Shown piece by piece: positions 6,968 to 32,628 of a stretch of DNA of 32,628 nt (positions are counted from its first letter, which is position 1; every line of letters begins with the position of its first letter). The translations under genes were made by a program, and so were the position numbers. The notes beneath the pieces were generated by a model that did no database searches, was not told the origin of the DNA, and saw only the letters and a program-made list of their open reading frames with translations. This stretch comes from Histomonas meleagridis 2922-C6/04-290x. Taxonomy: Eukaryota > Protista > Parabasalia. The stretch lies in contig JAANOX010000001.1 of NCBI GenBank assembly GCA_020184695.1, forward strand, positions 1 to 32,628. The letters are read 5' to 3'.

Positions 6968-7520
6968 TTTCATCATTCTTTTCTCATTTTATTTATCATC
7001 TTTTTTGCTTATCTTGTATCATTCTTTCTCTTTACTTTCGTAATTCTTTTTGTTTATCTTTCATCATTCTTTTTGTTTATCATTCAGCATTCTTTGCGTT
7101 TATCTTTCATAAATCTTTTTGTTTATCTTTTGCTCATTTATTTTGTTTATCTTTCAGCATTCTTTTCTTTTTACTTTCATCATTCTTTGGGTTTATCTTT
7201 CATTATTCTTTTCTATTTACTTTCATTATTCTTTTTGTTTATCATTCAGCATTCTTTGAATTTATCTTTCATCATTCTTTTTGTTTATCTTTCATCATTC
7301 TTTCTGCTTTTCTTTCAGCATTCTTTTCTCTTTACTTTCATCATTCTTTGAGTTTATCTTTCATTATTCTTTGCGTTTATCTTTTATCATTCTTCTCTCT
7401 TTACTTTTGTTATTCTTTTTGTTTATCTTTCAGCATCCTTTTTGTTTATCTTTCAGCATCCTTTTTGTTTATCATTTAGCATTCTTTTTGTTTATCTTTC
7501 ATCATTCTTTTCTTTTTATT
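6968..7520. repeat. 23-bp minisatellite, about 24 diverged copies
   Basis: Consensus TTTCATCATTCTTTTTGTTTATC, with a recurring variant ending TTCTCTTTAC. It ends about 40 bp from the MULE transposase stop codon. Confidence 0.9.
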
Positions 7521-10215: not shown

Positions 10216-10680
10216 TTATTTTAAAATAATAATATCAAAGACATAATATATATAAGTAGAAAATATATTTTATGGCATATAATGAAGAAAAAATAATTTT
10301 TGATGTAATTAATGCAGATTGAAAAAAGTAAAAAAATTTCAAAAAATAAATATCATAATCAAATTCTCCATATGTTAAAACATATGGTGGTATATTATTA
10401 TTATTAGAATATTCAATGTATATGATTTTATTTAAAAAATTTTTCTTTTTCATGATGCCATTTTTGAATGAGTATTCAAATTACTAGGAATTGTGATAAA
10501 ATATCACCTATTCAATTTATTTTTGGATACTTCCTATTTTTGTCAGGATAATTCTGATATAAAATATAAAATGTCAGATTAACAAAAAATAATACTTGAA
10601 TTTTGTAAGCAAATAATGATTTAATTTTAATTTCATATTAATAACTTTTGTTTATTTAACACACTCTATAAAATGAAACG

Positions 10681-11047
10681 TATAATATATAATGTAATGT
10701 ATAATATATAATGTAATGTATAATATATAATGTAATGTATAATATATAATGTAATGTATAATATATAATGTAATGTATAATATATAATGTAATGTATAAT
10801 ATATAATGTAATGTATAATATATAATGTAATGTATAATATATAATGTAATGTATAATATATAATGTAATGTATAATATATAATGTAATGTATAATATATA
10901 ATGTAATGTATAATATATAATGTAATGTATAATATATAATGTAATGTATAATATATAATGTAATGTATAATATATAATGTAATGTATAATGTATAATGTA
11001 ATGTATAATATATAATATATAATGTAACGTATAATGTATAATGTATA
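10681..11047. repeat. 19-bp AT-rich tandem repeat (TATAATATATAATGTAATG)
   Basis: 16 perfect copies at 10681-10984, followed by about 3 degenerate ones. Confidence 0.95.
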
Positions 11048-14281: not shown

Positions 14282-14509
14282 TTATTCCAACTCTTCTTCT
14301 CCTTCATCGCAATCAATTACTTTTGTAAACTTTGTGTCTGCAATTAATTGAACGGCGGCCCTAAACATTTGATTCTGATCGTGAATAACATTTTATCTCC
14401 ACATGAACTCTGATATATGTACATTGACTTTGTTTTCTGGAATTCATTCATATCTTTTATTGATTTTTCTAAGTTCTTATTAAAGTCTTTCTATCATTTG
14501 AGTGTGCCC
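14282..14509 (-). pseudogene. C-terminal remnant of a Merlin/IS1595 (ISXO2-like) transposase
   Basis: Manual translation GHTQMIERL**ELRKINKRYE*IPENKVNVHISEFMWR*NVIHDQ...ELE*. It matches the ISXO2 HTQxIExxW and EFxWR motifs and has four internal stops. Confidence 0.75.
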
Positions 14510-15147
14510 TTGAAAGCAAAATGTTATTAGTTCTCAATGAATTAAAGAACGTCGGAGAAGACAGACTTGCTAACTTCGATACATTAAAATCAATCATTAC
14601 TGATAAAACCATACGTATTAATGAGAAAAATCAACCAAGAAGAACTTCTGAAAACGTTGCTAATTTAATATTTATTACTAATAACAGTTATCCTATTAAA
14701 ATAGAATCAGGTGACAAAAGATATGTTGTATTATTATGTAACGGTAAGTATAAAAATAATCATATATTTTGGAGCAATATGTATAACAGTTTTATTACTG
14801 AGTTTTATAATCATTTATTAACATATTTTATGAACAGAGATATTAATGATTATAATTCTAGAATTATACCTATAACTGAAGCTAAACAAGATTTAATAGA
14901 AGCCTCTAGAAATTCTGTTGAACAATTTATATGTGATAATTATGATAAATTATGTGAGGGTTGGCTCTGTAGTGATGCATTATTTAATGAACCTTTTGAA
15001 ATTAAAATGAGATCTTTTCGACTTCAATCAAAAGATAAATGTAATAGAAAAAGAGTTCGTAGAGAAGGTGATTTATGTTATTGTTACTTTCTAAAGGATG
15101 AGTATAAAAATATATATCATCAAACAGAACATATTGATAATGATTAA
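14506..15147 (+). pseudogene. SF3 (D5-like) helicase, 5'-truncated
   Basis: Walker B LLVLNE, motif C NLIFITNN and arginine-finger region DKRY are present. Walker A is absent because the gene is cut at ~14506. Confidence 0.8.
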
Positions 15148-18100
15148 ATTTTAAAAACAGCTACTGTATTATTATCAATTATTGAAGTTATTTTTCCTAT
15201 AATCATACTGTTAATTTTTGTTGTTAATACAGCATCATCATCTAAAATACTACCGTCATATAAAATTATATCGCCAACAGAATATTTACTAGAATCATTA
15301 ACGTTAAAATAATAATCTCTGTGAGTTGCAAAATCAACAGTATCTTGATTAATACTTATATCTTGTTTTATAGTATCACCTATTTGAAAAATACTGTTAG
15401 CAATATGTTTATCAACACATATTCCTATAAATTCTTTATAAGAACCTGTACTTTTAACAGAAGGTATGCAATTAGTAGAATCTGTAGTAGAAGTGTATTT
15501 ATTAACATTATTTTCATTAACTAATTTATAAACATCACCTGTTATAAATACTGGTTTTCCGATAATAAAATTATCGATATTTTCATTTTCAGAAATAGGA
15601 CTGTTATGAGTTATTGTTTTATTCATTTGACCTCCTCCTGAACTGCTAATAATTGCTTTTCTATAAGTATCATTAGAATAATGCCAAAACCCTAATTCAT
15701 TTTGATAAGAAGTTATTCTCCAAGTATATGTTCCGGGGGCTGCTGTTGATTGATCATGATATACGAAATCTAAAAATCTACCTGTTCTTAATACAGCATT
15801 TTGATAAGGTACTATACCATTTGATTCATGAGTATGACTCGTTAATGCTATATTATTTAAGTTAATTCCGTTAACAGTATTACAATTTATATTACCGTTA
15901 CTGTTAAAAGTAATTGATCCAGAACCGTTTCTTTTAAACTCTAATGAATCAGTAGATGTTATTCTCCAAGAGTAATCACTGTTAAATTCATTATTATCAT
16001 GAAAATCTATATAACAACCTACTTCCATAACACCGTCTGATTTAATAGTAGCTATACAAGGCAATGTGTTTAAATAATTTCCTGCTGAAGAACCGTTATT
16101 CAAATAATAATTATTAATTTTACCGTTAACAGTTAAGTCGTTATTTATAGTATTATGAGTATGATTCATTAAAGAATATTTATCATAATGATTATGACTT
16201 GTTAAAAAGAAGTTATCAACAGGTATATTATTAATATATTTTACTTCTAAATTACCATATATTATTAAATCGTTGTTTATAGTGTTGTGAGTATGATTTA
16301 TTAATGAATATTCGTCGTCATGATTATGTGTTGTTAATGAGTATTCACTGTGATTATGAGAACTTGGCGGAAAAGTTGTTGGTTTATCAGTAATATCATT
16401 ATAACTATGAGTATGATTTATTAATGAATATTTATCGTCATGATTATGTGTTGTTAATGAAATATTATTAGTATCAATTCCATTAATACTATTACAACTA
16501 ATATTACCGTTTTTATATATACTTACGTAATTACCGTCACAAGTTTTAAATCTTAAACAAGTATCAATATTATCATCAGAACCTACGTAATGTTCTATTA
16601 CACTACAATCATCGCCATATGGTAATACACCTATTTCCATTCTGATAGAATTACCTGTCACTGCATTAGATCTATAAATAAATAATTTTTTATATATATT
16701 AGTATCATCTGGATATTTGCTGCAATCAATATTGATATTACGTTTTGATGTTAATATTCTGCAGGAAATATCATTATCTACTAATAAATCTTGTTCAACC
16801 TTTGTCCAAACGCCGTATTCATTATAAGAAATTCCTGTTAAAGCCTTATTTATATCAGTTAAATTATCATTAGTTAAATACTGATCATGAGTATATTTAT
16901 GTTAAATATATCATTACTAATAACGAATAATTCATCTAAATCAATGCCGTTAATATAATTACATTCTATATCACCGTTAACTTTTAAATTTTGATCAATA
17001 TTAGTATATATTTCACAGATATCCTCCTCTTCATTAATAATTGTTTCTAATAAATCTTTATGATAAGTAATTCCTGTATAATTATTTAAATCAGAGCTTA
17101 TTAAGTATTGATCATGAGTATGATTTATAAAACGTTTATATATCTGACAGTCAACTAATAACATACCTAATTCATTAGTTCTCTGTCCTTTAGAAACATC
17201 TTTATAATAATATTTTAAGTTCTTAAATATAGTATTCATTTCAGGAAACAGATTTATTAAATAGTTATATTCATTAAAATTATTATCGATATCAGTATCA
17301 TCAGGACCTTCTAAATCATCTAAATTTTCATCAGTTGATATATCATATTCATCAAATACAACGCTTCTTAATGTAGGTATAGGTATATAACCCCTGGCTC
17401 CTGTAAATACATTTTTTAATCTGCTAATTAACGACATAGCCCAAGAACTGTTTTTAATACTGTTATATACTTTACTTGCCAGTTCAGCAAATTCAGCTAA
17501 TGACATAGCAAAAGAAAAGGCATCTAATAAGTATTCTAGCCAGTTCTTCTTATATCCTTCACCATCTTCTCCAGGTGCTCCTGTTAATAATTCTTGTATC
17601 TCATCATCATCTATAATCATTTGTTTTGTTAAATAATATTCTGATGTTAATACTCCGTCAACATTAACTATACCATAAGTATGACCACTGTCTTCTAACA
17701 TAATACTATTACCGTTAGGAAAATTAATTAATATATTGTTTTCAGTAATTCCTTCATCGGTGATATTATCATAAGTTGATATATTAACGCCGTTTTCAAA
17801 TAATATTACATCAGAAATAGTTAAAATACCGTCTTCAATAAGTGCTATATTATTAGTATCAATTTCATTAATTTTACCGTTAACAATAAGATCTTGATTA
17901 ATTAATGTATATTTTTCATAAATATCCTCCTCTTCCTCCTCGTTAGTTTCAATAAGTGTTTCGTTATAATATATACCAGTTAATTTATTATTAATATTAT
18001 CTAAATTAGCACTTGTTAAATAATCACTGTGAACATGATCTATTAAAGCATATTTATCATCATGATTATGTGTTATTAAAGAAAAACTGTCAACAGATGT

Positions 18101-18899
18101 ATTATTTATAGAATTACATTGAATATTGCCGTTATTATTAAAACTAATTGTTTTACCGCCTATTTGCTTGAAAACTTAATGTATCAGTTATAGCTCTAAT
18201 CCGCCAAGTATTATCTTTATTATAATCATCTCTATAATGAAAATCAATGTATTCTCCTACTTCCATAACGCCGTCATTTTTAACAGTAGCTATACAAGGA
18301 ATTGTTATTGTTGAATTAGATCCTCCTCCAGCACTGTTTAGAATATAATAATTATTAATTTTACCGTTAACAGTAATATCATTATTAAATATATTATGAG
18401 TATGATCTATTAAAGAATATTTATCGTCATGATTATGATCTATTAAAGAATATTTATCATCATGATTATGATCTATTAAAGCAAAATCTTCTGTAGAATA
18501 GCCGTTAATAGTATCTATTAATAAATTGCTTATATTAACAGTATTATTATCTTCATTTATTTTAACAAATTCTTTATATAAAGTCAATACTTTATCAATA
18601 TCACTAAACATTTGTTTTAAATAAGCATTATTCATAATATTTGACCCTGTAATAATATCACTTACTAAAATATCATTTATGAGAACAAGGTTTCTAATAC
18701 TGTTATCTAAAGGATTAATTATTATATGATTTCTTCCGTAAGTAAATATAAATGATTTATCTATACTATTAATTGTTAATGAACATATACCGTTACTAAT
18801 AGTATCTGCTGTTTTACTGTGATTAGAATATACAACACTATTTTTATTTAATAATGATTTTACAACGTTTTCAATTCTGTCAATCCTATTATTTAACAT
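15144..18899 (-). CDS. ~1,250-aa fibre/tail-fibre-like virion protein (three track ORFs joined by two 1-nt frameshifts)
   Basis: After FQAN at ~18161 the shifted frame is open (GGKTISFNNNGNIQC...FPNGNSI) straight into ORF 16874..17701. Restoring one base at ~16895 gives NINHTHDQYL, which is open into ORF 15144..16661. The protein has 15 HxH repeats and PCIATxKxDGVMEVGxYIDFH modules. Confidence 0.75.
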
Positions 18900-18918
18900 A
18901 TTTTATTATAATTAAATA

Positions 18919-19744
18919 ATGTATAAAAATGAACGTCAAATGAGCACTAGCGTATCACAATTACCTGTTGAAGAAATATATACAAATTTTGATGTACAAG
19001 AAAATGAACAAAATATTGATAAATTAGATAAAGGTAAAGGTTATACTTTTCGTTTTCCACAGCGTTGGATTGAGTGTCCAAGTCAAAATAAAGTTATCAG
19101 TTTAAGACGTTTAAAAATAACACCTACAAGTCATACTATTATGTTAAAAATTTGGGCTAAAGGTCCGAGTCAATCAAGCGGTCTTACACGTAATGTTACT
19201 TTATATATTCAATCAAATAATACATTACGTGAAATATTATTTGATATGTGTAATCAATTTAATAACTTAGCAACAAATTATATATTATTATTCGATTTAG
19301 ATGAAAACAATACATTAAATATCTTTTGTAAATATAAATCTGATACACAAACAATAAATCAATGCAATTTTTGTTTTCAAGATGTCAAAAGCACTTCTAA
19401 TGAAAATCTAACAAATTTCTTAAAGTTTTTGAATCAAGATACTTCACAAACAAATATTGATAAATTAAACAAAATCTAATACAAGCTTGCAATTTGATAA
19501 TGTGTGGGACCGAGAATATATTGAATTTAATGCTTCATTTAGTGATAATAAACGCAGATTTATAGGTTTAAATAATGATTTTTATGATAAACCGACTGTA
19601 TTATTTAATCCTCCAACAGACGGTAATACTTTTAATATAACATTTTCAAACAGTAATAAAAAATTTATATATCCAAGATACTGTAAATTTATTATACAAT
19701 TAGTATTTATATATAATTATCGAAATGCAGTTACATTGAAATAA
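18919..19744 (+). CDS. Conserved Maverick protein (~275 aa), possible single jelly-roll minor capsid protein; frameshift at ~19473
   Basis: ORF 18919..19479 continues in the shifted frame as KSNTSLQFDNVWDREY... The termini are beta-rich. The function is inferred. Confidence 0.55.
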
Positions 19745-19771
19745 TTTGTTTTATATATTTATATGTTAAAG

Positions 19772-20910
19772 TTATATATTTTTAAAGTATTGCTTTTCAA
19801 TATTACTCATTATTTGAGGAGTATTTCCGCGTAAATAACTGACGGGTATTGTATCTTTATAAGGTTTATCTCCCGGTACTTTAAATAATACAGTATATTT
19901 ATTTTTATTCTTATCATAATTAAGTATTTTAATAATTTCACCGTTCCGTCTATTAGGTATTGTATTTGCAAACTTAGGTTTATGATGATAATTATCTACA
20001 ATAATTAATTGATATCTGGGTTTGGTTATAACAGTCCCGTCTTTAGCAATTAATGTATACATATTACCTTTGCGGTCATCAATTTTATACATTTCTCTGC
20101 TAATTTGATAACGTTTTTTATGAATACCGTCATTTCTAAATAATATATATCTTACATATAAACCTACAGGAATAATTAAATCTTTAATTTTTTGTTGTTT
20201 ATCAGCTAATTTTAAACACTTAAATATATACTCTTTTTCTAAGTCTTTATTATTAAACATTTCATTAGGAGTACAACCTATAGCAGAATGATAACTGTTA
20301 TTATAAGTATTTATAAATTTATTCATTCTTTTTGGACTTATATAAGTATATTTATCATCATGAGACTGATGTTTAGATTTCTCATTAGGAGTATTCATAT
20401 CACGTAATGTTCTAATAAATCTGTCAATAATACCTAAACTACTGTGATTTTTATCTGTAATAATATGCATACTGACATTATTATCTGTTAATAATTTTAC
20501 ATTATTTTTATCTAAAAAACCGGACTCTTCATCAGATGTTAATTTTACAGGATGATATTTATTAATAAATTGTTTTAATGTATAATTAATGTCTTTAGCA
20601 GATTTAGTATTTAAAGGATATACTACGACGTATCTGTTATTAGTACCTATAAATATATGCCAATATCTAGGATCATGTTTTCCGTTATCATACAATCAAC
20701 AAACCAAGTATTTGGTCTATTACTAAATATTTTTATCATATACGGTTTAATATCTTTTATTTTAATAAATTTATCCTTTAAACGTTGATTTACAATATAT
20801 TTAATTTTTTTACTTTTAACATTAAAATGTTTATTTTTGACATGTTTCTTTACATGATTATATGTTTTAAAATGAGTCTTATCTACAGTATCATTTATTG
20901 ATGTTTGCAT
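19772..20910 (-). CDS. Retroviral-like (Maverick) integrase with a chromodomain-like C-terminus; frameshift at ~20696
   Basis: WFVD(L)YD...HIFIGTNNRY, LTSDEESGF and HSSLGIIDRFIRTLRD are present, and the C-terminal IIKILNY...KYTVLFK resembles a chromo fold. One missing T (GAT TGT versus GAT TTG TAT) joins 20647..20910 to 19772..20695. Confidence 0.9.
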
Positions 20911-20949
20911 ATTATTTATTACATATAACAGTTATTTTTTGATAATAAA

Positions 20950-21384
20950 ATGGGATTAGGTAATATATTTGGAGGCATACGTAAATTAGTTCAAGGAGGC
21001 GGTAGATTATTTAAAAATATTATTGATAAAGGTAAACAAATTTGGGGTAAATTATCACCTATAATAAATAAAGGCGGTAAAATCATTAGTAAAATACCGG
21101 GAGCTATACAAACTATTAGAGATAAAAAACAGCAAATAACTGATAAAATTGATCAAATTGTGGATATGATTCCCGATAGTAAAACTAAAGATAAAATTAA
21201 AGGTGCTGTTGACAGAGGCAAACAAATATCTGATAGAATTATTAGCAGAGTTCAACATGTTAGTGATCAAGTACAACCTTATATAACTGCCGGTAAGAAT
21301 ATATACAATAAATTAAATCAAACAAAAACTAATATTCAACAACCAAATAATCAACTAAATATGTCAAATGCAAGATTGTTATAA
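20950..21384 (+). CDS. Basic amphipathic protein with Gly2, candidate membrane-penetration protein
   Basis: Intact 144-aa ORF starting MGLGNIFGGIRKLVQGGGRLFKNIIDKGKQIWGKL, with helical hydrophobic periodicity. Confidence 0.7.
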   Translation: MGLGNIFGGIRKLVQGGGRLFKNIIDKGKQIWGKLSPIINKGGKIISKIPGAIQTIRDKKQQITDKIDQIVDMIPDSKTKDKIKGAVDRGKQISDRIISRVQHVSDQVQPYITAGKNIYNKLNQTKTNIQQPNNQLNMSNARLL

Positions 21385-21416
21385 AAATAAATAATGTATG
21401 TTTTATTTTTACATAA

Positions 21417-22076
21417 ATGACTGAGACTGAGTTAGTTTTAGAAACACCTGCCAGCTCACAGCTGGTTGATATAAATGGCGCTGATAATACTTCTGACAGT
21501 ATTGATAACAATAACGCCGTTAATAATAATATTAACAACATAATTGTTGATAAAAAACCTATTAAAAACTTAACTTCTGAAGAGAAAAACATTATAATTA
21601 ATAATGCTAAAAATAACATTGACAACAAATATTATGACGTTATATTTTATAAGAACGGTAATACAAGAATAATATTAAAAAAAGATGTTAATAACACACC
21701 AAAAGATATTATTACTGACAATAAATCTGACAATAAATCATTAAAAAAGAAATCAATAACTAATTTATCAGACAATCAATTTTTGATTGAACATATAATC
21801 AAATTGAATTCACGTATCGATAAATTAAAGAATAAACAAAAAAGAATAAGTCACAAATATAAAAAAATGAAGTACGACATTTATGATAATATTGACGAAA
21901 ATGATAATATTAACGAAAATGATAATATTAACGAAACTAATGATCTCAATGAAAACAACAACGAAACTAATGAATTATATAATAATCAATATAATAACAA
22001 TAATAACAATAATAACAATAATAACAATAAATATGTTATTAAACAAAGGGGTTGGAGAAAGTTAGTATCTCATTAA
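21417..22076 (+). CDS. Hypothetical Maverick protein, Asn-rich with a coiled-coil segment
   Basis: Intact 219-aa ORF with blocks KNLTSEEKNIII...YYDVIFYKNGNTRII and QFLIEHII...LKNKQKRISHKYKKMKYDIYD, and a terminal RGWR. Confidence 0.7.
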   Translation: MTETELVLETPASSQLVDINGADNTSDSIDNNNAVNNNINNIIVDKKPIKNLTSEEKNIIINNAKNNIDNKYYDVIFYKNGNTRIILKKDVNNTPKDIITDNKSDNKSLKKKSITNLSDNQFLIEHIIKLNSRIDKLKNKQKRISHKYKKMKYDIYDNIDENDNINENDNINETNDLNENNNETNELYNNQYNNNNNNNNNNNNKYVIKQRGWRKLVSH

Positions 22077-22115
22077 TAAATGTATAATTGTTATGTTTAT
22101 TTTTATATAAATATT

Positions 22116-22586
22116 ATGCCCAAAAAATACCTCAAAAGATTAGGTAATAAGTCCAAAAAACCGAGAAAATCATTACGTAAAAAATTAGTAAAACATACTA
22201 AAAAATCATCAAATAATATTAATAGATCATCAAATAATATTAATAATTCTAATAACAACTCAGCCAGATCAAAAATAATGAATAATTTATCTCCTATGCC
22301 GATATCTATATCACAAACGCCTCCTAATATTAATTTAGATGCTGTACATAATATGAGAAATAATAATGATATTTTACAACAACAAATTAATGATATTAAA
22401 AATCAAAAAGAGTCTGAATTTGTACGTAAAAAATTATTAGATAAGCAAAAACAGGATATATTATCAGAAACTAAACGTCAGCAGCAATTATATGAAGATG
22501 GTGGTGTAATATCATAGATGAAGAACCAAATCATCGAGAGCAAAGAATGAAGTATATTGAAAATTCATTAATTAAATATCAAAACG
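22116..22586 (+). pseudogene. Lys-rich basic N-terminus plus coiled-coil viral protein, truncated by the retrotransposon
   Basis: MPKKYLKRLGNKSKKPRKSLRKKLVKHTKK. A shifted frame after ~22500 continues WCNIIDEEPNHREQRMKYIENSLIKYQNE until RT sequence starts. Confidence 0.6.
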
Positions 22587-24767
22587 AAAATTCCAGAATT
22601 ATGGAAAATATCAAGAACTATATTGTTATTTAAGAAGAATAATCCAGATGAAATCATCAATTGGAGACCAATCTCAATATCTCCAACTTTATACAGAATT
22701 ATGATGTGCCACTTTGCACGATGCATTCAAGATTTAAATGTTTCTTCGCCATTCATAAGTTCAGTACAAAAAGGTTTTAAAACCAATATCAATGGGATAA
22801 CTGAACACATTACGAATATAAATGAAATAATTGCACAATCAGTGAGGTCAAAAGATTCGATTTATATTACAACATTAGTTTTCGCCAAAGCCTTCGATTC
22901 AGTACCTCACAAGCTTATTACTTGGTCATTAAATCAATTAGGATTCCCGAATTATTGTATCAAATTAATAAAAGACTTATATACAGATACCAAAACAAGA
23001 ATAGAACTAAGAAATAAACCTTCAGATTGGATTAACATCAATAGAGGTGTCAGACAAGGTTGTCCTCTATCACCAACACTATTTAATTTATGTCTTGAAC
23101 CTTTAATTAAAGCAATACAAAATTATAATAAAAAAGATGGAGTAATTATAGAAGATCCAATGAGAGAAAATGAATTTTTCTTTTTTAATATTCAAGCTTA
23201 TGCAGATGATGTTATATTGATTTCTAATACACAAGATGGAATGCAAAATATGCTTAAAACAGTAGAAGAATTTTGTAAAATTTTTAAACTTAAAATAGCT
23301 TCACAAAAATGCAAAACTATATCTTATATAAATTTTAATAATAAAAGACCAACGTTGAATGAAAACTTTACTATTAATAATAAAGAAATACCAAATCATC
23401 CATTAATGGAATATATAGAATATTTAGGTGCACCAATAGCAATAATCGCAGTACAACATTCTCAAACTAAAATCAATAAAATTAAACAAGAAATCATACA
23501 AGTAATTAATTCTCCTTTAAAAGTTAATCAAATAATAGATGCAATTAAAAGAATAATTACTCCTCAATTAGATTTTGAAATGTTAAATGGTTTATGCTCT
23601 ATTAAAGAACTTAAAAAACTTGATGAATTTATTATAGGTTCAATAAATCAAATATTAAATACAAAAGGTTTACCAAAAGATTTATTTTATACACATTAAA
23701 GAAGGAGGTTTAAGTTATGTCATTTTGTAGAAAGAAATTATGTGTTCAATTAAAGAACATTTACAGGTTTATTATTATCAAAAGATATAAACATTAGGAA
23801 TTTTATTAGAATGACAATGTACAAAGAATTAGATTTCAGGAAAATTAAAGTCAATGAAAACTCACCTTATTTTGGAATTCCATTTGATGAAAAGGGTAAA
23901 ATCATACAAAATTCATATAGTAAAACAAATAGTACATTTTGTAGAGCAACAAAATCATTATATAACTTAAAAGTAGGTTCTAAGCCAAATTTAGAAGAAA
24001 ACAATCGTATTATTTATCAAATTAAAAACAAAGAAAATGAAGAAGAATAAGAAGAAACAGAAGAATGTATTAATGAAAAGATATCACAAAAATATCCAAA
24101 TAAAATGATACAGAAAGAAACATGCAGATAACCTTAAGAAGTTATTATTTTGAGCACATACTTTTGCACAATAGATAAATCAGCTGACTCAAATTTCTTT
24201 CTATCTGATTTTAGAGCACCAACAAGTAATAATATCATTAAATTCGCAATTCTAGCAAGATGTAATAATTTACCGACAAATGAAATCCTAAATAACAATA
24301 ATTTAAATATAAATTCTAAATGTAATAGATGTAACTTAAATCAAAATGATTCATTGATGCATAGAATTAATGATTGCATTAAAATTGAAAATATAACTAC
24401 TAAAAGACATAATGCAATAGTAGAAGAAATAATCATCAAAGAAAATAATTATAAAGGTAATAATATCATATTTAATGAAAACACAGGAGTAATTGATAGA
24501 AATCACAAAACAATCGGAACATTCAAGCCTGACATTTGGTATATAAATAACAATAGATTAACAATAATCGAAGTCAATTCCCCTTATGGTACAATTAGAA
24601 ATCTTGATGACAATCCAGAATCTACTTCAGTAATCAGAATAAAAAAAAAACAAAATAAATATAAAGAGAATAAAGAGTTATGCAAAAATAGACTTAATAT
24701 ATATAAGTCGACCTATATATCATCATTAATTCAACACAAGGTAATATACCAAACTACTAAAGAATAA
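22587..24767 (+). pseudogene. Reverse transcriptase - CCHC - RLE endonuclease ORF, disrupted
   Basis: KIPELWKISRTILLFKK, WRPISI, QKGF, LVFAKAFDSVPH (catalytic Asp changed to Val, GTT), RGVRQGCPLSP, YADD, YLG; then CNRC...H...C, RHNAIV and KPDIW...IIEV...KY. There are several stops and frameshifts. Confidence 0.9.
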
Positions 24768-25488
24768 AAAAGATTATTTTCAATGGAAATAAAAAGGTTG
24801 ATACATTTAGTTTTTATGTGTTATTGCAGCACTGTAAGAATCAATGTTGATATTCTATAAGATATACGAGAAAGACAAAAATAAAAAATAAGAATACTAA
24901 CTATAATATAAACATTAATTTAGAGAGAGAAGAAGAAGATTGTAATGTTATAGATGAAGATAATCATAATCCTGAAGAAGAAGATGAAGAAAAATCAGAA
25001 GAAGTACTATTCTCAGATTTTTTCTCTAATTCAGAACTCTTTAGATATGAACGAAGAAGAAAAAGTGAAGGATTTGTTATATTTACATCAGCAGAAAATA
25101 AGTATAACAAAAACCCGTAAAAAGGGAACAAAACAAAAATCTATAATAGAAGATCTGTATCATAATAGATAACAACAAAGCAAGGAAGAATGAAGATAAC
25201 TGGATGAAGATGTACTCAATATATAGAGGAAAAAGTATTGATGAATTACGTAAAACGTATGAGAGTTGAACACCCGTCTAGACTGTTACAATACGCGATT
25301 GATAAGAAGAAGAAAGCAGAAATTATTGAAGATTCTACTATTAGACAGAATAAGAAGATCGGAAAAGTGACACAAACTGTTAAAACGGTTTCGACCACCT
25401 CAGAGGTCAATCATAATATGGATCATAATAGTGGGATCAACCTACCATAATTTAAGACGGACGCGTCATTATACAATACATACTCATC
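22587..25488 (+). mobile_element. 5'-truncated non-LTR retrotransposon of the RLE type (R2/NeSL/CRE-like), nested in the Maverick
   Basis: RT, zinc-knuckle and restriction-like endonuclease coding sequence, followed by an acidic tail and a 3' region. The ends are approximate and no TSD was found. Confidence 0.85.
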
Positions 25489-25491
25489 CCT

Positions 25492-27030
25492 TTAGAAGAT
25501 TGGTATAACGCAGTAGATGATTGTTTAAAATTATCAGAAATTATACCCGGTAATTATGAATACACTACAGCAACCTCTTACGGCAATGTAGGTGATATTA
25601 ATGAAGGTGATACTACATATGTAGATATAGCTACTGATAGATTTAAAATTATTAGTTTAGACAATTCATATATTACTTTAAAACAAACTGTTAAAATAAC
25701 AGTTCCTGATCAAACAAATTTATTATTTAAAGAATATTATATTGGTTATAAGTGTTCATGTGATGCTATTGATCAATACAGAATTTATAGTAATACTGAT
25801 AAAATACAAGATATTCATAATGCTAGATATGAATGGTTTATGTTTTATAACAGTTTATCTGATGAAGCTAAGTCCGGTAATGATTGTTTTGCAACAATTG
25901 ATAAAATTAGAAATCATGATCCAATGGTACCGGGTGTTTATGTTGATTTATCAGCAATAAATGCTGCCAAGGAAATTACTGTCGAAATACCTTTACGTAT
26001 ACCTTTATCATACTTCTTATTATTATTTAATATGAGATATTATCCTAATTGGGCAGGTAAACTATCTATAGAATTAATGCCTTCTTATCAAAATTTAGTT
26101 ATAGCACCAATACCTAATTATGATAATATATTGTTAAAAAATGATGATAGCGATAATGATAAGAGAGAATATTATATTGATATTCGAGATATTATTAATA
26201 GCGGTGCCGTAGACTTAGGATTTCGTAATATAAATGAAACTGTATAAAATAATATCAAAGAAACTAATTCATCTGGATCATATACATATACTGAACAACA
26301 ACAACAATTTATATGTAATACTCAAGTAACAAAAGACATCAAAATTAAATTAGCAGAATATTTATTAAAAATGGATGTATTTAACGCATTAGCTGCTAAA
26401 TATATACAAGTTCCGTTATTATTTCCTATACATATATGTCAAGTAAGAGACTTCACACAAGAATATATAGGCGATAAATCATTAATAGATACCGCTGCTA
26501 CTATCGGAATTAGACATTGTGATACATTATTTACAGTATTTCGCGTAAATCAATATTCTAGAACATGTTTCTTAAATCCACATATTAGTTACAGATTTAA
26601 TATTGACGGCAAAATGTATCCCCGAGAAGACTACACAACTGTAGATGACGCTAAAAATATTAATATGTTATTGGACAGTGTTAATTTAAACGGAAGTTTA
26701 TTAAGCAGTCTTAATGAAGATTTAAAAACATCAATACAGCCATATTATTATAAAAATACTTATAATGCTTCTGGAGTAAAAACTACAACAAGAATTTGGC
26801 ACGGTAAAGATTTCCAAGGCGGTATTTCAACAACGGGTACTATACAAATAGAACTTCACGGAAATCGTGTAAATACAACTGATTATTTAGCTACAAGTCC
26901 AAATGCATCACCTGTAGGTATATATTTTGAAGATGCTATATTAAAAATACGTTCTGTAAAACCTGAAGGAAGGTCACAAATTGAAATTACTAATGCATCT
27001 GTAGAACAAGTTATTAACGGATTACGTTAA
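25492..27030 (+). pseudogene. Major capsid protein (double jelly-roll), N-terminus lost, one in-frame stop at 26245-26247
   Basis: The frame is open from 25492 (LEDWYNAVDD...IISLDNSYITLKQ...YYIGYK) and stays in frame across a single TAA into ORF 26371..27030 (RFNIDGKMYP...GGISTTGTIQIEL). It spans ~510 codons, is beta-rich and lies next to the penton and ATPase genes. No upstream ATG exists before the stop at 25453. Confidence 0.75.
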
Positions 27031-27068
27031 AAATATATATTATAAAAATAATATATATTATTAAATAT

Positions 27069-27875
27069 TTATTTTTGTTTGTCTATATTTTCATCAGATG
27101 CTGTTATAAGTAAATTACTGTTTTTAATATCTTCATCAATGTCTTCATCAGGTATTGGTCTTATAGATATTGTTATATACATAGGTGATAATAAATGAAC
27201 TTCTTGCATATTAGCATCTACTAATTTTAATTCTAAATGTGACAAATCACTGCTGTTAATCAATACTTCAAAATCAGCATTATTAACAATAATAGGATAA
27301 TTATTACTAAAAGAATTATCAATTCTGAGTATTATTTTTGATATATTGATGTTTTCATTTAAATTTCTATAACTACTTTTACCTAAATTACTTACTATAT
27401 ATAATACAGGTGTTGATAAATAATTCCCTACAGAATCACATAATATTTCATATTTATTCGTATCTTTATTTAAATAAGTTGATGTTAAAGGTAAATTTGT
27501 ATTATATAAACCTGTTAATTGTTTTATATTATAACTCATATCATTTACAGTAAATTCATTAGCACTACTAAATATTAATCTGCTTGTAGAATCAGTCTCA
27601 ACAATAACATTACTTTTTGTAATTAAACTTGTTAATAAACTCGCAAAAACTTGTATAATTTACATCAGTATACTGTGTGTTAAAAGTATATTTTGTATTA
27701 TTGATTATTATATAATCACCTCTTTTTCAATAACTACTATATTACAATGAGTTGTTAATGAAGTAATTATCATTTTAGCAAATCTTGTATGAGGTAATGG
27801 TAAATTAACATTAATTCTGTTATAATGATTAACATCATATGATGAAATCATATAATCAATTATTTCATTAAACAT
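27069..27875 (-). CDS. Minor capsid protein (penton-like), two compensating frameshifts at ~27722 and ~27650
   Basis: The ATG at 27875 gives MFNEIIDYMISS...GDYIIINNTKY...VFASLLTSL...MSYNIKQLTGLY...STPVLY...LVDANMQEVHLLSPMYITI (~268 aa). It is convergent with the major capsid gene. Confidence 0.65.
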
Positions 27876-27899
27876 TATATTTTAATTTTTATAAAAATA

Positions 27900-28052
27900 A
27901 TGATATTTGAATTATATATATGTATTATATCAACTATTTATGTAATCAATTCTGTAATAAATACATTTATAAAAATATATAATATTGATATTGATAATAA
28001 TGATGAAGAAGAAGAGATACCTGATAATATTAAGAAATCATTATATTGTTAA
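27900..28052 (+). CDS. 50-aa small membrane protein (not in ORF track)
   Basis: MIFELYICIISTIYVINSVINTFIKIYNIDIDNNDEEEEIPDNIKKSLYC*: hydrophobic N-terminus and acidic tail. It fills almost the whole gap between the penton and ATPase genes. Confidence 0.65.
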   Translation: MIFELYICIISTIYVINSVINTFIKIYNIDIDNNDEEEEIPDNIKKSLYC

Positions 28053-28055
28053 AGT

Positions 28056-28952
28056 TTATTTTTCAACATTAGCTAATGTAATAGTTATTTTTTTGGCTTT
28101 TATGTATATATTAAATCTACTGTGTTGATCTTTTATTTTTGAATACTCATTCCATAACTTATCTACGTCAAAACAACTTGCAGGTGATTCTTTAATCAAA
28201 TAATAAAAGTCTTCTTTAGAGATACCTGGAAATAATACTATATCAGATAAGGTTCTTTTCAAATCTTTTGGTATTGATTTTACTGTTTGTACACATACAA
28301 TAACATTAATATTGAAGTGTCTTAACTTTTTTAATAATTTCATTAAATCAGTTTCTTTATTTTTTAATAACACGTGATTTGCAAAATCATCTAATATTAA
28401 TAACATTCTGTGAGGATATGTTTTCCAATTGTAATAAGCTAATTTCAATGATATATATTTTAATATCTTTTCTTTTGAATTTAATTTATGTTTAAAAAAG
28501 ACTCTTTCTAATTCCTCATTAATTTCTTTAAAGTTACTGTTAATATATTTCATTATTGAGTTATATTTTAAAATACGCCTCATATATTTGTTTAAGAAAT
28601 CTAATAAATCGTTATCAGATATCGCTATAAGTTTACTGTTTTTAATTAATATTTTAAAAGAATTTACTGTTTCATCAAACTTGTTACTTGTAGAACATAT
28701 ACATATTAACTCATAAAAAGGTTCATTAAATAATACTTCTTGTTGAGCTACTAATTTTAAATAAGTATAACTTTTACCCGATCCCATAGGTGCAATAAAT
28801 GCACAAATACCGTTCTGAGAAAATGGATATTTTTCATGTATAGGTTTTATTAAAGCATTATCTAATAATACTTTGTTTTTGTTACTAATCTTATTAAAAT
28901 TGTTATCTATTTCTTTAAACTTTTTGTCAATAGATTCATATTTATGCTTCAT
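28056..28952 (-). CDS. A32/FtsK-HerA-type DNA packaging ATPase
   Basis: Walker A APMGSGKS, Walker B LLILDD and the downstream LRHFNINVIVCVQ motif. The ORF is intact (298 aa). Confidence 0.92.
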   Translation of the reverse strand: MKHKYESIDKKFKEIDNNFNKISNKNKVLLDNALIKPIHEKYPFSQNGICAFIAPMGSGKSYTYLKLVAQQEVLFNEPFYELICICSTSNKFDETVNSFKILIKNSKLIAISDNDLLDFLNKYMRRILKYNSIMKYINSNFKEINEELERVFFKHKLNSKEKILKYISLKLAYYNWKTYPHRMLLILDDFANHVLLKNKETDLMKLLKKLRHFNINVIVCVQTVKSIPKDLKRTLSDIVLFPGISKEDFYYLIKESPASCFDVDKLWNEYSKIKDQHSRFNIYIKAKKITITLANVEK

Positions 28953-29014
28953 TTTGTTAAAAATAAAAACACATCATATTTTTAATTGTTTTAATATTTT
29001 TTCCTCATATAAAT

Positions 29015-29485
29015 ATGGAATCATTTAAAAGTTATTTGTTAAGTGATTTTGAAAATCTTAATTACAAAGCCGTAGATATTAAATTTAAACACTCTGAGAA
29101 ACCAGGTATCGATAAAAAAACTAAAGAACCTTATATTCGTCACAGTATATTAGTAAATATGAAGTTTTATAATCAAAACCTCAAATTATTAAGTGCTGTT
29201 AACATTAAATTTATTAATGATAAATTAGCTCCTGTAAGTGCTAAAAAATTAAAAAACATATCACCAGATGAGCTCAATAATAAATTTATTGATGCTAAAC
29301 AACATATTGTAAGTGAAATATGTAATGACATACAAAATAAAATTGAACATTTAACGTCAAAAATAAATTCTATTAACAATTATTGTCAAACATCTAATAT
29401 CACATCTAATAAAACATCTAATAATGACCTCGAAAATGATGATATTATTAAACCCACAAAATCTAAGAAGAAATTTGATATGTAA
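29015..29485 (+). CDS. Hypothetical Maverick protein
   Basis: Intact 156-aa ORF with tight flanking spacers. No motif recognised. Confidence 0.65.
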   Translation: MESFKSYLLSDFENLNYKAVDIKFKHSEKPGIDKKTKEPYIRHSILVNMKFYNQNLKLLSAVNIKFINDKLAPVSAKKLKNISPDELNNKFIDAKQHIVSEICNDIQNKIEHLTSKINSINNYCQTSNITSNKTSNNDLENDDIIKPTKSKKKFDM

Positions 29486-29514
29486 AAATGAACAAAAATA
29501 AAATAATATTATTT

Positions 29515-31686
29515 TTATAAATTCATCAATGTTTTTATAGGATCTTCACTGTTAATACATATATTTTTATATTTGTTATTAACGTGATATATATATTCAT
29601 TATTAATATTTTTACCGATCCAATTATCAGCTGATTTAATATATATTTCCTTGAATATGTGTTCAATTTTAAACTGACCTAATTTATCACCAATATATCC
29701 TAAATCCAATAATTTGTTATAATCTTCTTTAGATATCAATAAAGAATCAACTTTAGAATAATATACATCAGATATTAAACTTTTAATATGATTCATTTTA
29801 TCATTAAAATTATTTAATACTGATCTTGCAAATTGTGGATAAGTAAAGTGTTCTCTATAAGGTTTTATTGTATATACATAATTATTGGTATCATATTTAA
29901 TAACGTAAGGAGCAAATTCTTCGATATATTTATCAACGCAGCTTTCGCTGCAACCAGCTTTGCTGGCATTAGTCTCTAATTTTTTATTAAAATTAGGAGG
30001 TTTTCTAATAGATGAACCCCAACAACTATTCATCATAAATTTCAATGTAGTAGATAATTTATTATTGTTATTATTTTTGGCATTCATTCTTAAATTATAT
30101 AATATTTCAATAAGTTCTTTTATTTTAGTATTTTGACCTTTAAAATTACAGTTATTATCAGGTTTACCTATAGGTATTGATGTTACAGATGACATATATG
30201 CACCGTTTAAATCTATATAATAATACTTTCCTGTTAAATGTATTTGTTTCCAGATGGTCTTAGGAAATATACATTCATTACGTATTTTATTTGAAATATC
30301 ACCTGATAACTCATATACATTATCAAAACAACCGTATTCATACATTATTTTTAACATTAAATCGCTGTATCTGTAATAAGCTTTAACATTAATTTTTAAA
30401 CCTAAATTATTAATAATATCTTGTAATTCATTTAACCTGTAGTTAACTTCATTATCATCAATATTATACCCAAATAATTTCTTACCGTGTTTCATTCTTT
30501 TAACAAAATCAGGTATATACTTCTTATCAGGTATATGTATTAATCTATAACTGTTATAAGATTTATTAATAGTTTTATAACTCCAACACAATTTATTATA
30601 AGCATTAATATCCATAGGTTTTAATAAATTGCATTGTTTCATAGTATTAATTATATAATATACAGATATAGGTTTAGAAGCATATTCTATTGTTTTATTT
30701 TTATCATAATTTTTAATACTGTCAATTGATATATTAACACTTTCGTTTAACATATAATGATTATCTATAATGATTAATTTTATAGTTTTATTATATTGTT
30801 TACCGTAATCTCTGTGAGTAAAACCTTTATTAGCCATATATCTGACATTAATATGTACTTTTAATAAATCTGATATATTATTTAATTCTGATAAAGGAAC
30901 TGTTCTAGTATTTATAAATGATCTTAACATATTAATTTCGTTATCTGTAAATAAATTGCTAGCAATAAATGATTGTATCAAACAAGATTCATTAATATTT
31001 TCATTGTTGACGTTATTGAAAATACCATATTTTGTAAGATCTATATCAGTAGTATTAATATAAGGGAAGAATCCTGGATTAACTCTTTTACCGTTCTTTA
31101 AATCTTTAAATTCAAACTTTATAGATTTAATATTTTTAAAGGTTTCTAATGCTAAAGTATTACTGTCACTAATATCATCTTTTTCATTAATTATATTATA
31201 TAAGAAATTAACTGTATTCATATTTCCGTGGTAATAAGATATATTATTATTATCGTCAATAATTGTCATTCTAATATCTTTATTTATCTTAGGACCTACT
31301 GATTTTATAGCATACATTAATGATTTTAACATAATATTGTTTTTATTAGAATTCACTGTATGAGTAAAGTCTTTCTGAACCATTAATTTCTTAATTAATT
31401 CTTTAGTTATATTGTTAATAGATTTATTATGTATCGGTTTATCTGCAGGTTCATCTTCGGATAAAGCTATATTATAATAATCATCAAAGTAATCATATTT
31501 ACTGCGTTTATTGTGTTTGATTTTATACTGTAGTTGATTAACTGATAAATGATCATATTTATTATTCATTTCATCATAAACTTTGTATTTGGTTTTAGTA
31601 TTTATATGTTCAAAATTATCTGGTAATGTATAACCGTAATTATTGAACAATTCTATTACTTGTTTTGTTGTTAGCTTTTTAGGCAT
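29515..31686 (-). CDS. Divergent, short family-B DNA polymerase-like protein
   Basis: Motif A YIDLNGAYMSSV, motif B KFMMNSCWG, motif C variant YYSKVDSLLI, then DKLGQFKIE, in the correct order. The ORF is intact (723 aa). Confidence 0.8.
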   Translation of the reverse strand: MPKKLTTKQVIELFNNYGYTLPDNFEHINTKTKYKVYDEMNNKYDHLSVNQLQYKIKHNKRSKYDYFDDYYNIALSEDEPADKPIHNKSINNITKELIKKLMVQKDFTHTVNSNKNNIMLKSLMYAIKSVGPKINKDIRMTIIDDNNNISYYHGNMNTVNFLYNIINEKDDISDSNTLALETFKNIKSIKFEFKDLKNGKRVNPGFFPYINTTDIDLTKYGIFNNVNNENINESCLIQSFIASNLFTDNEINMLRSFINTRTVPLSELNNISDLLKVHINVRYMANKGFTHRDYGKQYNKTIKLIIIDNHYMLNESVNISIDSIKNYDKNKTIEYASKPISVYYIINTMKQCNLLKPMDINAYNKLCWSYKTINKSYNSYRLIHIPDKKYIPDFVKRMKHGKKLFGYNIDDNEVNYRLNELQDIINNLGLKINVKAYYRYSDLMLKIMYEYGCFDNVYELSGDISNKIRNECIFPKTIWKQIHLTGKYYYIDLNGAYMSSVTSIPIGKPDNNCNFKGQNTKIKELIEILYNLRMNAKNNNNNKLSTTLKFMMNSCWGSSIRKPPNFNKKLETNASKAGCSESCVDKYIEEFAPYVIKYDTNNYVYTIKPYREHFTYPQFARSVLNNFNDKMNHIKSLISDVYYSKVDSLLISKEDYNKLLDLGYIGDKLGQFKIEHIFKEIYIKSADNWIGKNINNEYIYHVNNKYKNICINSEDPIKTLMNL

Positions 31687-31748
31687 ATATATTATATTAA
31701 AATAAAAATAAAATAAATTTTTATGAAAATTATATTTTTAAAGATTGT

Positions 31749-32035
31749 TTATATAGTAATTCCAGAAACAGATTTGACAAATTTGAGTGATATTTTACGT
31801 TTATCGATAAATTCTATAACATCTGGAAAACTATATTTTAAATTATATGTTTCACCATCTTTTTTAACATATATTTTACTAACATAATCATAAGTATTAC
31901 TTTTACAACAATATGTATCAGTATCAGCTTTTAACAGTTCAACTTCATTAGTATCACATAATAATTGCAATAATTTAATTAATTCATCTTCTTCAGCAAT
32001 TATATATTTATTAACAATTAACGTTTATTGCTCAT
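31749..32035 (-). CDS. Small conserved-looking Maverick protein (~95 aa) with a CC motif; frameshift near its start
   Basis: One added A after ATG AGC AAT AAA gives MSNKTLIVNKYIIAEEDELIKLLQLLCDTNEVELL...TYCCKS...YSFPDVIEFIDKRKISLKFV. Confidence 0.55.
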
Positions 32036-32628
32036 AATATCTAAACATAAACTAATGCTTGCATTAATAAATCTTTGGCGTGAATAATGTTTTGTAAAAA
32101 TTATTATTTAAATCATTAGCTGTTTCGACAGATCTGTTGTGAATAGTCATTATTATCGTTAACGTCTTGATATTTGCTCTATGATCGAGACTCATGAATA
32201 ATACAGGATTTCGGCATTACATTTCAGTTTTGATTGGGGCTGTTGATGTTGTATACTTTTGCTGACAAAATGCTTTTGAACAAGATATACCTTTGGAATG
32301 AGGGCTACTGACATATTTGCATTATATGTAAAAAATACTATTGTAATGGACTTGTTTGACTATATCAAAGAATAAAATCTAAAGTGTTTACTATAAAACA
32401 CAATTGCCTTATTGATTTAATCAATTTATATTGAGACTGAGTAATATATAAATATATTATAATTGCTACAATATTTAAAGTCTAAAAATTGGGTTTAATA
32501 TAATTTACAGTAATGTAAATATAAAATAAAATACCGTTAAAAATATGCCAGGACGGTATATATAGTATATGATCCTAACAAAAATGAAATAACTCTATGT
32601 GCTGCGAAGAAAAATATTAATTATAACA

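What the first reader, a model, noticed from the sequence alone, without database searches (positions are those of the whole stretch)
14506..32130. Near-complete endogenous Maverick-type virus with an unusually full virion gene set
Beyond the standard integrase, ATPase, MCP and penton, this element appears to encode a long fibre, a candidate second minor capsid protein, a membrane-lytic candidate, a basic core-protein candidate and a small membrane protein. It pairs an SF3 helicase with a reduced PolB. This reads as an entry-competent virus blueprint rather than a simple transposon. Mavericks are known in trichomonads, but I am not aware of these accessory ORFs being functionally assigned (not verified).
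Basis: partly seen in the sequence, partly recalled or inferred. Interest (0 to 1): 0.8.

Follow-up and report, generated by a model that had tools for sequence, protein, structure and literature searches.

The report
Decayed two-penton virus in poultry parasite
This is a broken, retrotransposon-interrupted copy of an integrated Maverick-type DNA virus, likely from the poultry parasite Histomonas; its relatives keep genes predicted to build a capsid with likely two vertex proteins, a likely fibre, a likely membrane-entry protein and an unusually shrunken polymerase, so the family likely makes particles although this copy likely cannot.

Summary
The element is real but this copy is decayed: 9 of 15 genes are broken, a retrotransposon interrupts it, and no termini are in the window. 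Its capsid gene is 99% identical to an annotated Histomonas meleagridis protein. An unbroken MCP homologue models as a double jelly-roll; the 'second minor capsid' homologue models confidently as a penton. The other penton candidate was not folded and rests on a language-model match. All accessory genes recur, in syntenic blocks, among 80 gut-metagenome loci. One call is wrong: the 'basic core protein' is the stump of a ~540-aa coiled-coil protein found in 80 of 80 loci. The membrane-lytic candidate has a conserved Gly2 and a basic amphipathic N-terminus, but no detectable homology to adenovirus protein VI. The PolB keeps vOTU and palm motifs, lacks the exonuclease and apparently TPR1, and is paired with an SF3 helicase, as in mavirus. 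Parabasalid Mavericks, fibres and membrane-active accessory genes are published; two pentons and TPR1 loss were not found in my searches. Particles and expression are untested. Verdict: new variant of a known kind, interest 0.5.

The parts
14485..15147 (+). SF3 (D5/P4-primase-type) helicase, C-terminal half only; the first ~225 residues including Walker A are missing
   Evidence: DUF5906 E 5.6e-12; PHROG DNA primase E 1e-9; 40% identical to residues 228-442 of a 462-aa helicase in L002; its stop codon overlaps the fibre stop
15144..18899 (-). Likely fibre, about 1250 codons, in three frames (breaks near 18160 and 16890); His-x-His repeats, conserved C-terminal domain
   Evidence: The three pieces map in order on one open frame in L010; C-terminal domain 58% identical to L007; PHROG tail protein E 8e-4; not folded
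18919..19744 (+). Second penton (single jelly-roll with inserted domain), split near 19470
   Evidence: 35% and 58% identical to an unbroken 268-aa ORF in L010; that homologue models at pLDDT 93.8 and hits mavirus, Sputnik and adenovirus pentons first; 289 homologues
19772..20910 (-). rve integrase with C-terminal Tudor/chromo-like part, split near 20690
   Evidence: rve E 2.9e-5, below the curated cut-off; 61% identical to L002 integrase; 67 of 80 loci
20950..21384 (+). 144-aa basic amphipathic protein with Gly2, likely membrane-active; full length
   Evidence: 72 of 80 loci; hydrophobic moment 0.71-0.78, net +11 to +12 in the first 60 aa, shuffle p 0.003-0.02
21417..22076 (+). Conserved 219-aa ORF, function unassigned; full length
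   Evidence: 35% identical to L007 ORF, E 8e-23; 75 of 80 loci
22116..22517 (+).
   Evidence: 45% identical over 78 aa to the N-terminus of a 550-aa ORF in L007, E 2e-10; alignment; 536-568-aa family present in 80 of 80 loci
22500..25490 (+). 5'-truncated, broken non-LTR retrotransposon (RT plus zinc-knuckle/endonuclease region); replaces most of the coiled-coil gene and the MCP start; limits approximate
   Evidence: RVT_1 E 4e-33, zf-RVT E 8e-4; 0 of 80 related loci
25492..27030 (+). Double jelly-roll major capsid protein; lacks its first 18 codons, has an internal stop at 26245-26247 and a 15-codon in-frame gap
   Evidence: 99% identical to annotated Histomonas protein P0001 over the first half; tblastn; P0001 model pTM 0.78, Foldseek E 1e-12, Z 16.8
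27069..27875 (-). Likely first penton, split near 27660-27710
   Evidence: 56% identical to 249-251-aa ORFs in relatives; ESM Atlas 0.98 to viral clusters, 0.97 to a cluster with DUF5901 on 14% of members; not folded
27900..28052 (+). 50-aa ORF with a hydrophobic N-terminal segment, likely a single-pass membrane protein; full length
   Evidence: 38% identical, E 6e-6, to a 49-aa ORF between ATPase and penton in 9 loci
28056..28952 (-). A32-type packaging ATPase; full length, Walker A and B present
   Evidence: Pox_A32 23.5 bits, above cut-off 22.8; 70% identical to relatives
29015..29485 (+). Conserved 156-aa ORF, function unassigned; full length
   Evidence: 35-38% identical in 13 of 80 loci
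29515..31686 (-). Reduced protein-primed-type PolB, 723 aa, open: N-terminal region, vOTU-like Cys/His, palm motifs A-C; no exonuclease, apparently no TPR1, short thumb
   Evidence: hhalign 99% to a full-length pPolB in L081; motif and spacing counts on 120 homologues; not folded
31749..32312 (-). Conserved ~190-aa ORF, broken
   Evidence: 33% over 190 aa; 49% over 83 aa
32350..32620 (+). Probable remnant of the conserved 104-128-aa ORF
   Evidence: Start and end motifs matched by eye only; not scored

Best explanation
The stretch is a decayed, retrotransposon-interrupted copy of a Maverick/polinton-like DNA virus integrated in a genome that is likely Histomonas meleagridis, and its family likely spreads between cells as icosahedral particles. 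Predicted working cycle of an unbroken member: double jelly-roll capsomers form the shell; two penton paralogues likely occupy the vertices; a long fibre likely binds the host surface; the A32 ATPase likely packages the DNA; after uptake the basic amphipathic Gly2 protein likely breaches the vacuole membrane; the rve integrase likely inserts the genome; an exonuclease-less PolB likely copies it with the SF3 helicase unwinding ahead. The ~540-aa coiled-coil protein with a basic N-terminus is likely an internal scaffold or tape-measure protein. Shown: gene set, synteny, breaks, motif losses. Predicted by modelling: MCP and second-penton folds. Inferred: fibre, first penton, membrane lysis, scaffold, polymerase activity, particles.
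For: MCP homologue: AlphaFold2 pTM 0.78; Foldseek top rows Sputnik, iridovirus, mavirus MCPs at E about 1e-12; VIA-align first 15 rows all double jelly-roll viral capsid or scaffold proteins, best Z 16.8, rmsd 4.5, 325 aligned. Second penton homologue: pLDDT 93.8; 6 of 6 Foldseek rows at E<=0.001 are mavirus penton, next Sputnik and adenovirus; BFVD rows include named minor capsid proteins. Accessory genes conserved at 33-70% identity in 80 loci, mostly as open frames in the loci read in full. Helicase directly followed by the PolB start in L002. Family is multicopy: 4 and 8 named Histomonas proteins in two MCP clusters; at the MCP stop 122,615 of 124,703 summed depth in run X1 reads otherwise. 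Mavirus precedent for exonuclease-less pPolB plus SF3 helicase (10.1101/2024.03.18.585575, passages). Fibre found in particles of a cultured polinton-like virus (10.1101/2022.07.28.501842, passages).
Against: No particle or expression data. This copy has 9 of 15 genes broken and no termini. No maturation protease was found among the ORFs scanned. The first penton, fibre, PolB and coiled-coil protein were not folded; profile comparisons of the first penton found nothing. Second-penton structural scores are modest over the whole chain (TM 0.25-0.29, VIA Z 6.0-8.6). The amphipathic ORF matches no Pfam family above cut-off and no adenovirus chain. PolB motif C reads YSK[TV]DS and the KxY motif is lost in the homologues, so activity is uncertain. 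The helicase was seen in only 3 of 80 loci, and L010/L056 go from the upstream ORF straight to PolB. The 80 loci were chosen by MCP and come from few families, so they are not independent.
Confidence: 0.75

Rival explanations
1. The family is helper-dependent: a virophage-like parasite that forms particles but replicates only when a large DNA virus of parabasalids co-infects. Compatible with most of the best explanation.
For: Replication module (exonuclease-less pPolB, SF3 helicase, rve integrase) resembles mavirus; egoviruses are inferred to infect Parabasalia and to have given KilA to their polintons (10.1101/2024.03.23.586382, passages).
Against: No KilA family hit among the window ORFs or the 19 relative ORFs scanned; MCP is only 9% identical to mavirus MCP and scores as well on iridovirus and PBCV-1; no helper-type promoter was tested.
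Confidence: 0.3
2. The family now spreads only inside genomes as a transposon; capsid and entry genes are relics.
For: This copy is heavily broken; a second decayed fibre fragment lies at 1030-1250.
Against: Capsid, both penton candidates and accessory genes stay open and 33-70% identical between Histomonas and gut loci; the second-penton family has 289 representatives at 50% clustering.
Confidence: 0.15
3. The reduced PolB is not the replicase: it only primes or scaffolds, and a host polymerase elongates behind the SF3 helicase.
For: Exonuclease patterns absent; motif A to B only 59 aa against 137 in a full pPolB; motif C first Asp replaced by Lys in 120 of 120; KxY lost. Similar losses were read as inactivation in Tlr1-like helicase fusions (PMC5499653, passages).
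Against: The motif A Asp and the second motif C Asp are kept in 120 of 120; the later paper predicts such palm domains to be active.
Confidence: 0.3
4. One reading: this copy is a near-complete, entry-competent genome with a small basic core protein.
For: Nearly all family genes have a trace here.
Against: 9 of 15 genes broken, retrotransposon insertion with loss of about 1.3 kb, no termini, core ORF is a stump.
Confidence: 0.04

Closest known systems
Parabasalid Mavericks/polintons (TvMav; Metamonada 'MMN' MCP group of PMC10120064)
   Same: Parabasalid host, multicopy, integrase + PolB + ATPase + divergent double jelly-roll MCP; T. vaginalis elements are reported to carry fibres with phage-tail repeats (PMC12220804).
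   Different: T. vaginalis PolB is reported to cluster with polB1-type enzymes, whereas this PolB misses Pfam DNA_pol_B_2 and lacks the exonuclease; no KilA hit here; two penton candidates. Direct clustering with T. vaginalis MCP was not tested.
Mavirus (Cafeteria virophage)
   Same: Exonuclease-less TP-vOTU-palm pPolB plus separate SF3 helicase; its penton is the best structural match of penton 2; rve integrase (recalled).
   Different: MCP 9% identical; no maturation protease found; mavirus pPolB keeps TPR1, here the TPR1 interval is missing; long fibre and second penton.
Adintoviruses / MELD viruses (PMC8502044)
   Same: Accessory genes annotated as fibre, tape measure, protein-VI-like and membrane-active peptides.
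   Different: No PLA2, gasdermin or adenain family hit here; no sequence link was shown.
Gezel-14T (PgVV), cultured polinton-like virus
   Same: MCP, penton, A32 and a fibre-like protein, the last found in particles.
   Different: Uses TVpol and a tyrosine recombinase, and a lipase as the proposed entry enzyme.

Membership tests
Maverick/Polinton (Polintoviricetes) | Protein-primed family B polymerase | tested here: met
   hhalign 99% to a Pfam-positive pPolB; strongly reduced, no Pfam hit itself
Maverick/Polinton (Polintoviricetes) | rve integrase | tested here: met
   rve E 2.9e-5, below curated cut-off; conserved in 67 of 80 loci
Maverick/Polinton (Polintoviricetes) | Double jelly-roll MCP | tested here: met
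   on the unbroken homologue P0001
Maverick/Polinton (Polintoviricetes) | Single jelly-roll penton | tested here: met
   penton 2 homologue; penton 1 only by Atlas features
Maverick/Polinton (Polintoviricetes) | A32 packaging ATPase | tested here: met
   Pox_A32 above cut-off
Maverick/Polinton (Polintoviricetes) | Adenain-like maturation protease | tested here: inconclusive
   none among scanned ORFs, but both ends of the element are missing and several ORFs are unassigned
Maverick/Polinton (Polintoviricetes) | Terminal inverted repeats and 6-bp target duplication | tested here: inconclusive
   none in the window or in 3 of 80 loci examined; left end truncated, right end beyond the window
Maverick/Polinton (Polintoviricetes) | MCP falls in the Maverick-Polinton MCP clade | not testable with these tools
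   reference profiles not held; trichomonad polintons are reported unplaced (10.64898/2026.06.19.733378)
Metamonada (MMN) MCP group | Parabasalid host | tested here: met
   99% identity to a named Histomonas meleagridis protein; BspA-like and MULE genes in the flank
Metamonada (MMN) MCP group | MCP clusters with the T. vaginalis MCP | not tested
   no Trichomonas name among the best 120 of 252 hits listed; the rest were not seen
Mavirus-type virophages | Exonuclease-less pPolB with separate SF3 helicase | tested here: met
   definition
Mavirus-type virophages | Virophage-type MCP | tested here: inconclusive
   fold hits shared among virophage, iridovirus and PBCV-1 MCPs at 8-12% identity
Mavirus-type virophages | Dependence on a giant virus | not testable with these tools
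   needs culture work
Adenovirus protein VI | Detectable sequence homology | tested here: not met
   no adenovirus chain at E<=10 in PDB sequences; no such Pfam hit
Adenovirus protein VI | N-terminal basic amphipathic helix | tested here: met
   three homologues
Adenovirus VII/X-type core protein | Short stand-alone basic protein | tested here: not met
   relatives are 536-568 aa; the window ORF ends at the retrotransposon

The most novel reading that the evidence does not exclude
An unclassified lineage of gut-protist DNA viruses (Histomonas and a human-gut parabasalid) that still circulates as particles, builds its vertices from two different pentons, enters through a myristoylated amphipathic protein, and replicates with a pPolB stripped of both exonuclease and TPR1, implying a priming mechanism unlike that of described protein-primed polymerases.
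Probability: 0.3. Interest if true: 0.75.

Novelty: new variant of a known kind. Interest (0 to 1): 0.5.

Why it matters
Trichomonad polintons fill up to about 40% of a host genome (PMC12289875) yet were still unplaced in a 2026 classification, and no Maverick virion has been seen. A defined virion parts list for a parabasalid lineage gives concrete targets for proteomics and electron microscopy in a culturable host. The minimal PolB is a direct test of what a protein-primed polymerase needs. Relatives are frequent in human-gut assemblies (one MCP cluster has 899 members), so the lineage may be a common, overlooked part of gut eukaryotic viromes.

Tried and rejected
No own genome is held, so other copies and termini could not be read. 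Word-based search with the first half of penton 2 found nothing; the HMMER search with an unbroken homologue did. Sequence-profile searches of PDB gave nothing useful for MCP, either penton candidate or PolB, NCBIfam nothing for the structural genes. hhalign of penton 1 against penton 2 and against the penton-like ORF of L081: no match (the penton 1 alignment has 4 rows). IMG/VR scans: 4 of 5 found no relative, one gave two distant PolB loci. Complex prediction of penton 2 (3 copies) with the fibre N-terminus: no answer. Expression: no RNA holder listed; two runs guessed to be RNA gave 24 short low-depth contigs each, over element and flank alike; uninformative. ESM Atlas on the amphipathic ORF: best 0.90 unnamed, second 0.89 a Parabasalia cluster, a lead only. 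Earlier-finding look-ups returned nothing. A planned count of genes per locus corrected for contig length, a hydrophobicity score for the 50-aa ORF and a scored test of the right-end remnant were lost with the script machine. Rejected: stand-alone core protein; integrase as an IS481EU transposon (weak IS481 hit, 22.5 bits against cut-off 224; gene is syntenic within the viral block).
Full report
1. What is in the window. ORF lists, the sequence and family scans show, from 14485 to the window's end: helicase half (+), fibre (-), penton 2 (+), integrase (-), amphipathic ORF (+), ORF219 (+), coiled-coil stump (+), a non-LTR retrotransposon (+), MCP (+), penton 1 (-), 50-aa membrane ORF (+), A32 ATPase (-), ORF156 (+), PolB (-), a ~190-aa ORF (-) and a probable last remnant (+). 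The left flank holds a BspA-like LRR gene and a MULE transposase. No terminal inverted repeat was found. No whole genome is held.

2. Host. The first half of the MCP is 99% identical to a protein annotated in Histomonas meleagridis; a second Histomonas family is 74% identical. The two clusters hold 4 of 5 and 8 of 14 members named Histomonas. The host is therefore inferred to be this parabasalid, and the element multicopy. DNA contigs of two runs of one study cover the laid stretch with summed depth far above the flank contig (about 550); the tool warns that this is no copy number and the runs may be the assembly's source.

3. State of this copy. Against relatives, 6 of 15 genes are full length and 9 are broken. 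The helicase lacks its first ~225 residues with Walker A. The fibre lies in three frames that map in order on one open frame of L010. Penton 2, integrase and penton 1 are each split. The MCP lacks 18 N-terminal codons, has one internal stop and a 15-codon gap. A 5'-truncated retrotransposon (RVT_1 E 4e-33; in 0 of 80 relatives) sits where about 410 codons of the coiled-coil gene and the MCP start should be. At two breaks most depth reads otherwise (MCP stop: 122,615 of 124,703 in X1; fibre break near 18160: 14,421 of 15,278), so these breaks are confined to few copies or are errors of this assembly.

4. Conservation. An MCP alignment gave 121 related stretches in metagenome contigs, of which the best 80 were kept; those with a descriptive name are human-gut assemblies. 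With window pieces as queries: integrase 67, amphipathic ORF 72, ORF219 68, right-end ORF 65, PolB 59, ORF156 13, ATPase 10, penton 1 4-5, penton 2 3, fibre pieces 1-6, helicase 3, all of 80; the basic ORF and the 50-aa ORF 0. With unbroken relatives as queries the coiled-coil family is in 80 of 80 loci and hits the window's basic ORF (45% over 78 aa, E 2e-10), and the 49-aa ORF is in 9 loci and hits the window (38%, E 6e-6). Low counts for genes far from the MCP likely reflect short contigs; the corrected count was lost. Two blocks are kept: integrase-amphipathic-ORF219-coiled coil-MCP, and PolB-ORF156-ATPase-membrane ORF-penton 1, with penton 2 head to head with the fibre; their order differs between families. 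The loci represent few families (2-5 non-redundant types for most genes). Their host is likely a human-gut parabasalid such as Dientamoeba; that is inference from recalled taxonomy and was not tested.

5. Capsid folds. P0001 with 38 rows models at pLDDT 72.6, pTM 0.78 and matches Sputnik, iridovirus, mavirus and PBCV-1 MCPs (Foldseek E 1e-12; Z 16.8, rmsd 4.5, 325 aligned). The unbroken penton 2 of L010 has 289 homologues (76 rows aligned), models at pLDDT 93.8, and its best hits are mavirus penton (6 of 6 rows at E<=0.001), then Sputnik and adenovirus; the first seven VIA rows are chains of viral capsid entries (Z 8.6-6.0), and BFVD lists named minor capsid proteins. Whole-chain TM scores are low (0.25-0.29), in keeping with a jelly-roll and an inserted domain that match separately. 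Profile comparisons were blank. Two pentons is thus likely, not shown. L056 carries two tandem penton 2 paralogues.

6. Accessory genes. Fibre: long, His-x-His repeats, weak PHROG tail hit (E 8e-4), conserved N- and C-terminal domains and a variable middle; role inferred. Amphipathic ORF: starts Met-Gly in all types printed, net +11 to +12 in 60 residues, hydrophobic moment 0.71-0.78, above shuffles (p 0.003-0.02); no homology to adenovirus protein VI; myristoylation and lysis are inferred. The 'core protein' is the start of a 536-568-aa protein rich in Lys, Glu and Gln directly upstream of the MCP; its coiled-coil nature is judged from composition, and scaffold or tape measure is my inference. 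The 50-aa ORF is real and conserved; membrane role judged from its sequence.

7. Replication. The PolB has no Pfam hit but aligns at 99% probability with a full pPolB in L081. In the 120 best of 300 homologues: Cys and His of a vOTU-like domain are kept in the commonest patterns (117 and 113 of 120 shown), the motif A Asp in 120 of 120, motif C as YSK[TV]DS in 120 of 120, KxY lost. In the 74 of 120 with all anchors matched, His to motif A spans 181-227 aa (397 in L081), A to B 59 (137), C to end 81-87 (155). Exonuclease I/II patterns were found in none of those with both anchors. That TPR1 lies between motifs A and B is recalled; its loss rests on spacing against one comparator and on the gap, not on a model. 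Helicase and fibre stops overlap in the window and L002 has helicase directly before PolB, so the pairing is real; L010 and L056 lack a helicase at that place.

8. Literature, with what I saw. PMC10120064 (passages): Metamonada MCP group from five parabasalids. 10.64898/2026.06.19.733378 (parts 1-2 of 5): trichomonad polintons unplaced; no Maverick virions seen. PMC12220804 (passages and section 11): fibres common in polinton-like viruses, also in T. vaginalis. PMC8502044 (passages): fibre, tape measure, VI-like and membrane-active genes annotated in MELD viruses and adintoviruses. 10.1101/2024.03.18.585575 (passages): mavirus pPolB lacks most of the exonuclease and pairs with an SF3 helicase; all modelled pPolBs keep TPR1 and TPR2. 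PMC5499653 (passages), 10.1101/2022.07.28.501842, 10.1101/2024.03.23.586382, PMC12289875 (supplements closed), 10.64898/2026.10.13.758929, PMC10045372: passages only. Searches for Histomonas with Maverick or polinton and Dientamoeba with Maverick returned 2, 1 and 3 papers, none on such elements by title, listing or passages; 'second minor capsid' and 'multiple minor capsid' had no occurrence in the 9 papers listed. The library lacks most subscription papers, so this is weak evidence of novelty.

9. Verdict. The class and most accessory categories are known. What seems new is the combination in a Histomonas/gut lineage: likely two pentons, a conserved coiled-coil protein, and a PolB without exonuclease and apparently without TPR1. 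New variant of a known kind; interest 0.5.

Noticed in passing
window 1030-1250: Decayed fragment about 70-80% identical to the 5' part of the fibre gene: a second, older remnant of the family.
   Followed up: partly
window 1681-2972 (+): BspA-like leucine-rich-repeat surface protein gene, in more than one frame.
   Followed up: partly
window 7559-9394 (-): Split MULE transposase with SWIM and zinc-knuckle motifs, next to a 23-bp tandem array at 6921-7519.
   Followed up: partly
window 10667-11016: 19-bp AT-rich tandem array, 18 copies, 98% matches.
   Followed up: no
window 15144-15147: Stop codons of helicase (+) and fibre (-) overlap in a TTAA palindrome.
   Followed up: yes
L056 1-1977 and 15193-16892: An inverted second coiled-coil gene plus MCP start, and two tandem penton 2 paralogues, in one contig; nested copies or misassembly.
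   Followed up: partly
L076 1-7300: Large phage-like genes (terminase- and portal-like by eye) joined directly to the ORF219-coiled coil-MCP block; probably a chimeric contig.
   Followed up: no
L081: A compact polinton-like virus in IMG/VR with a full-length pPolB whose N-terminal region resembles that of the reduced PolB.
   Followed up: partly
window 19772-20695 (-): The integrase has Asp where the third catalytic residue is usually Glu (IIDRFIRT), also in relatives; position judged from recalled motifs.
   Followed up: no
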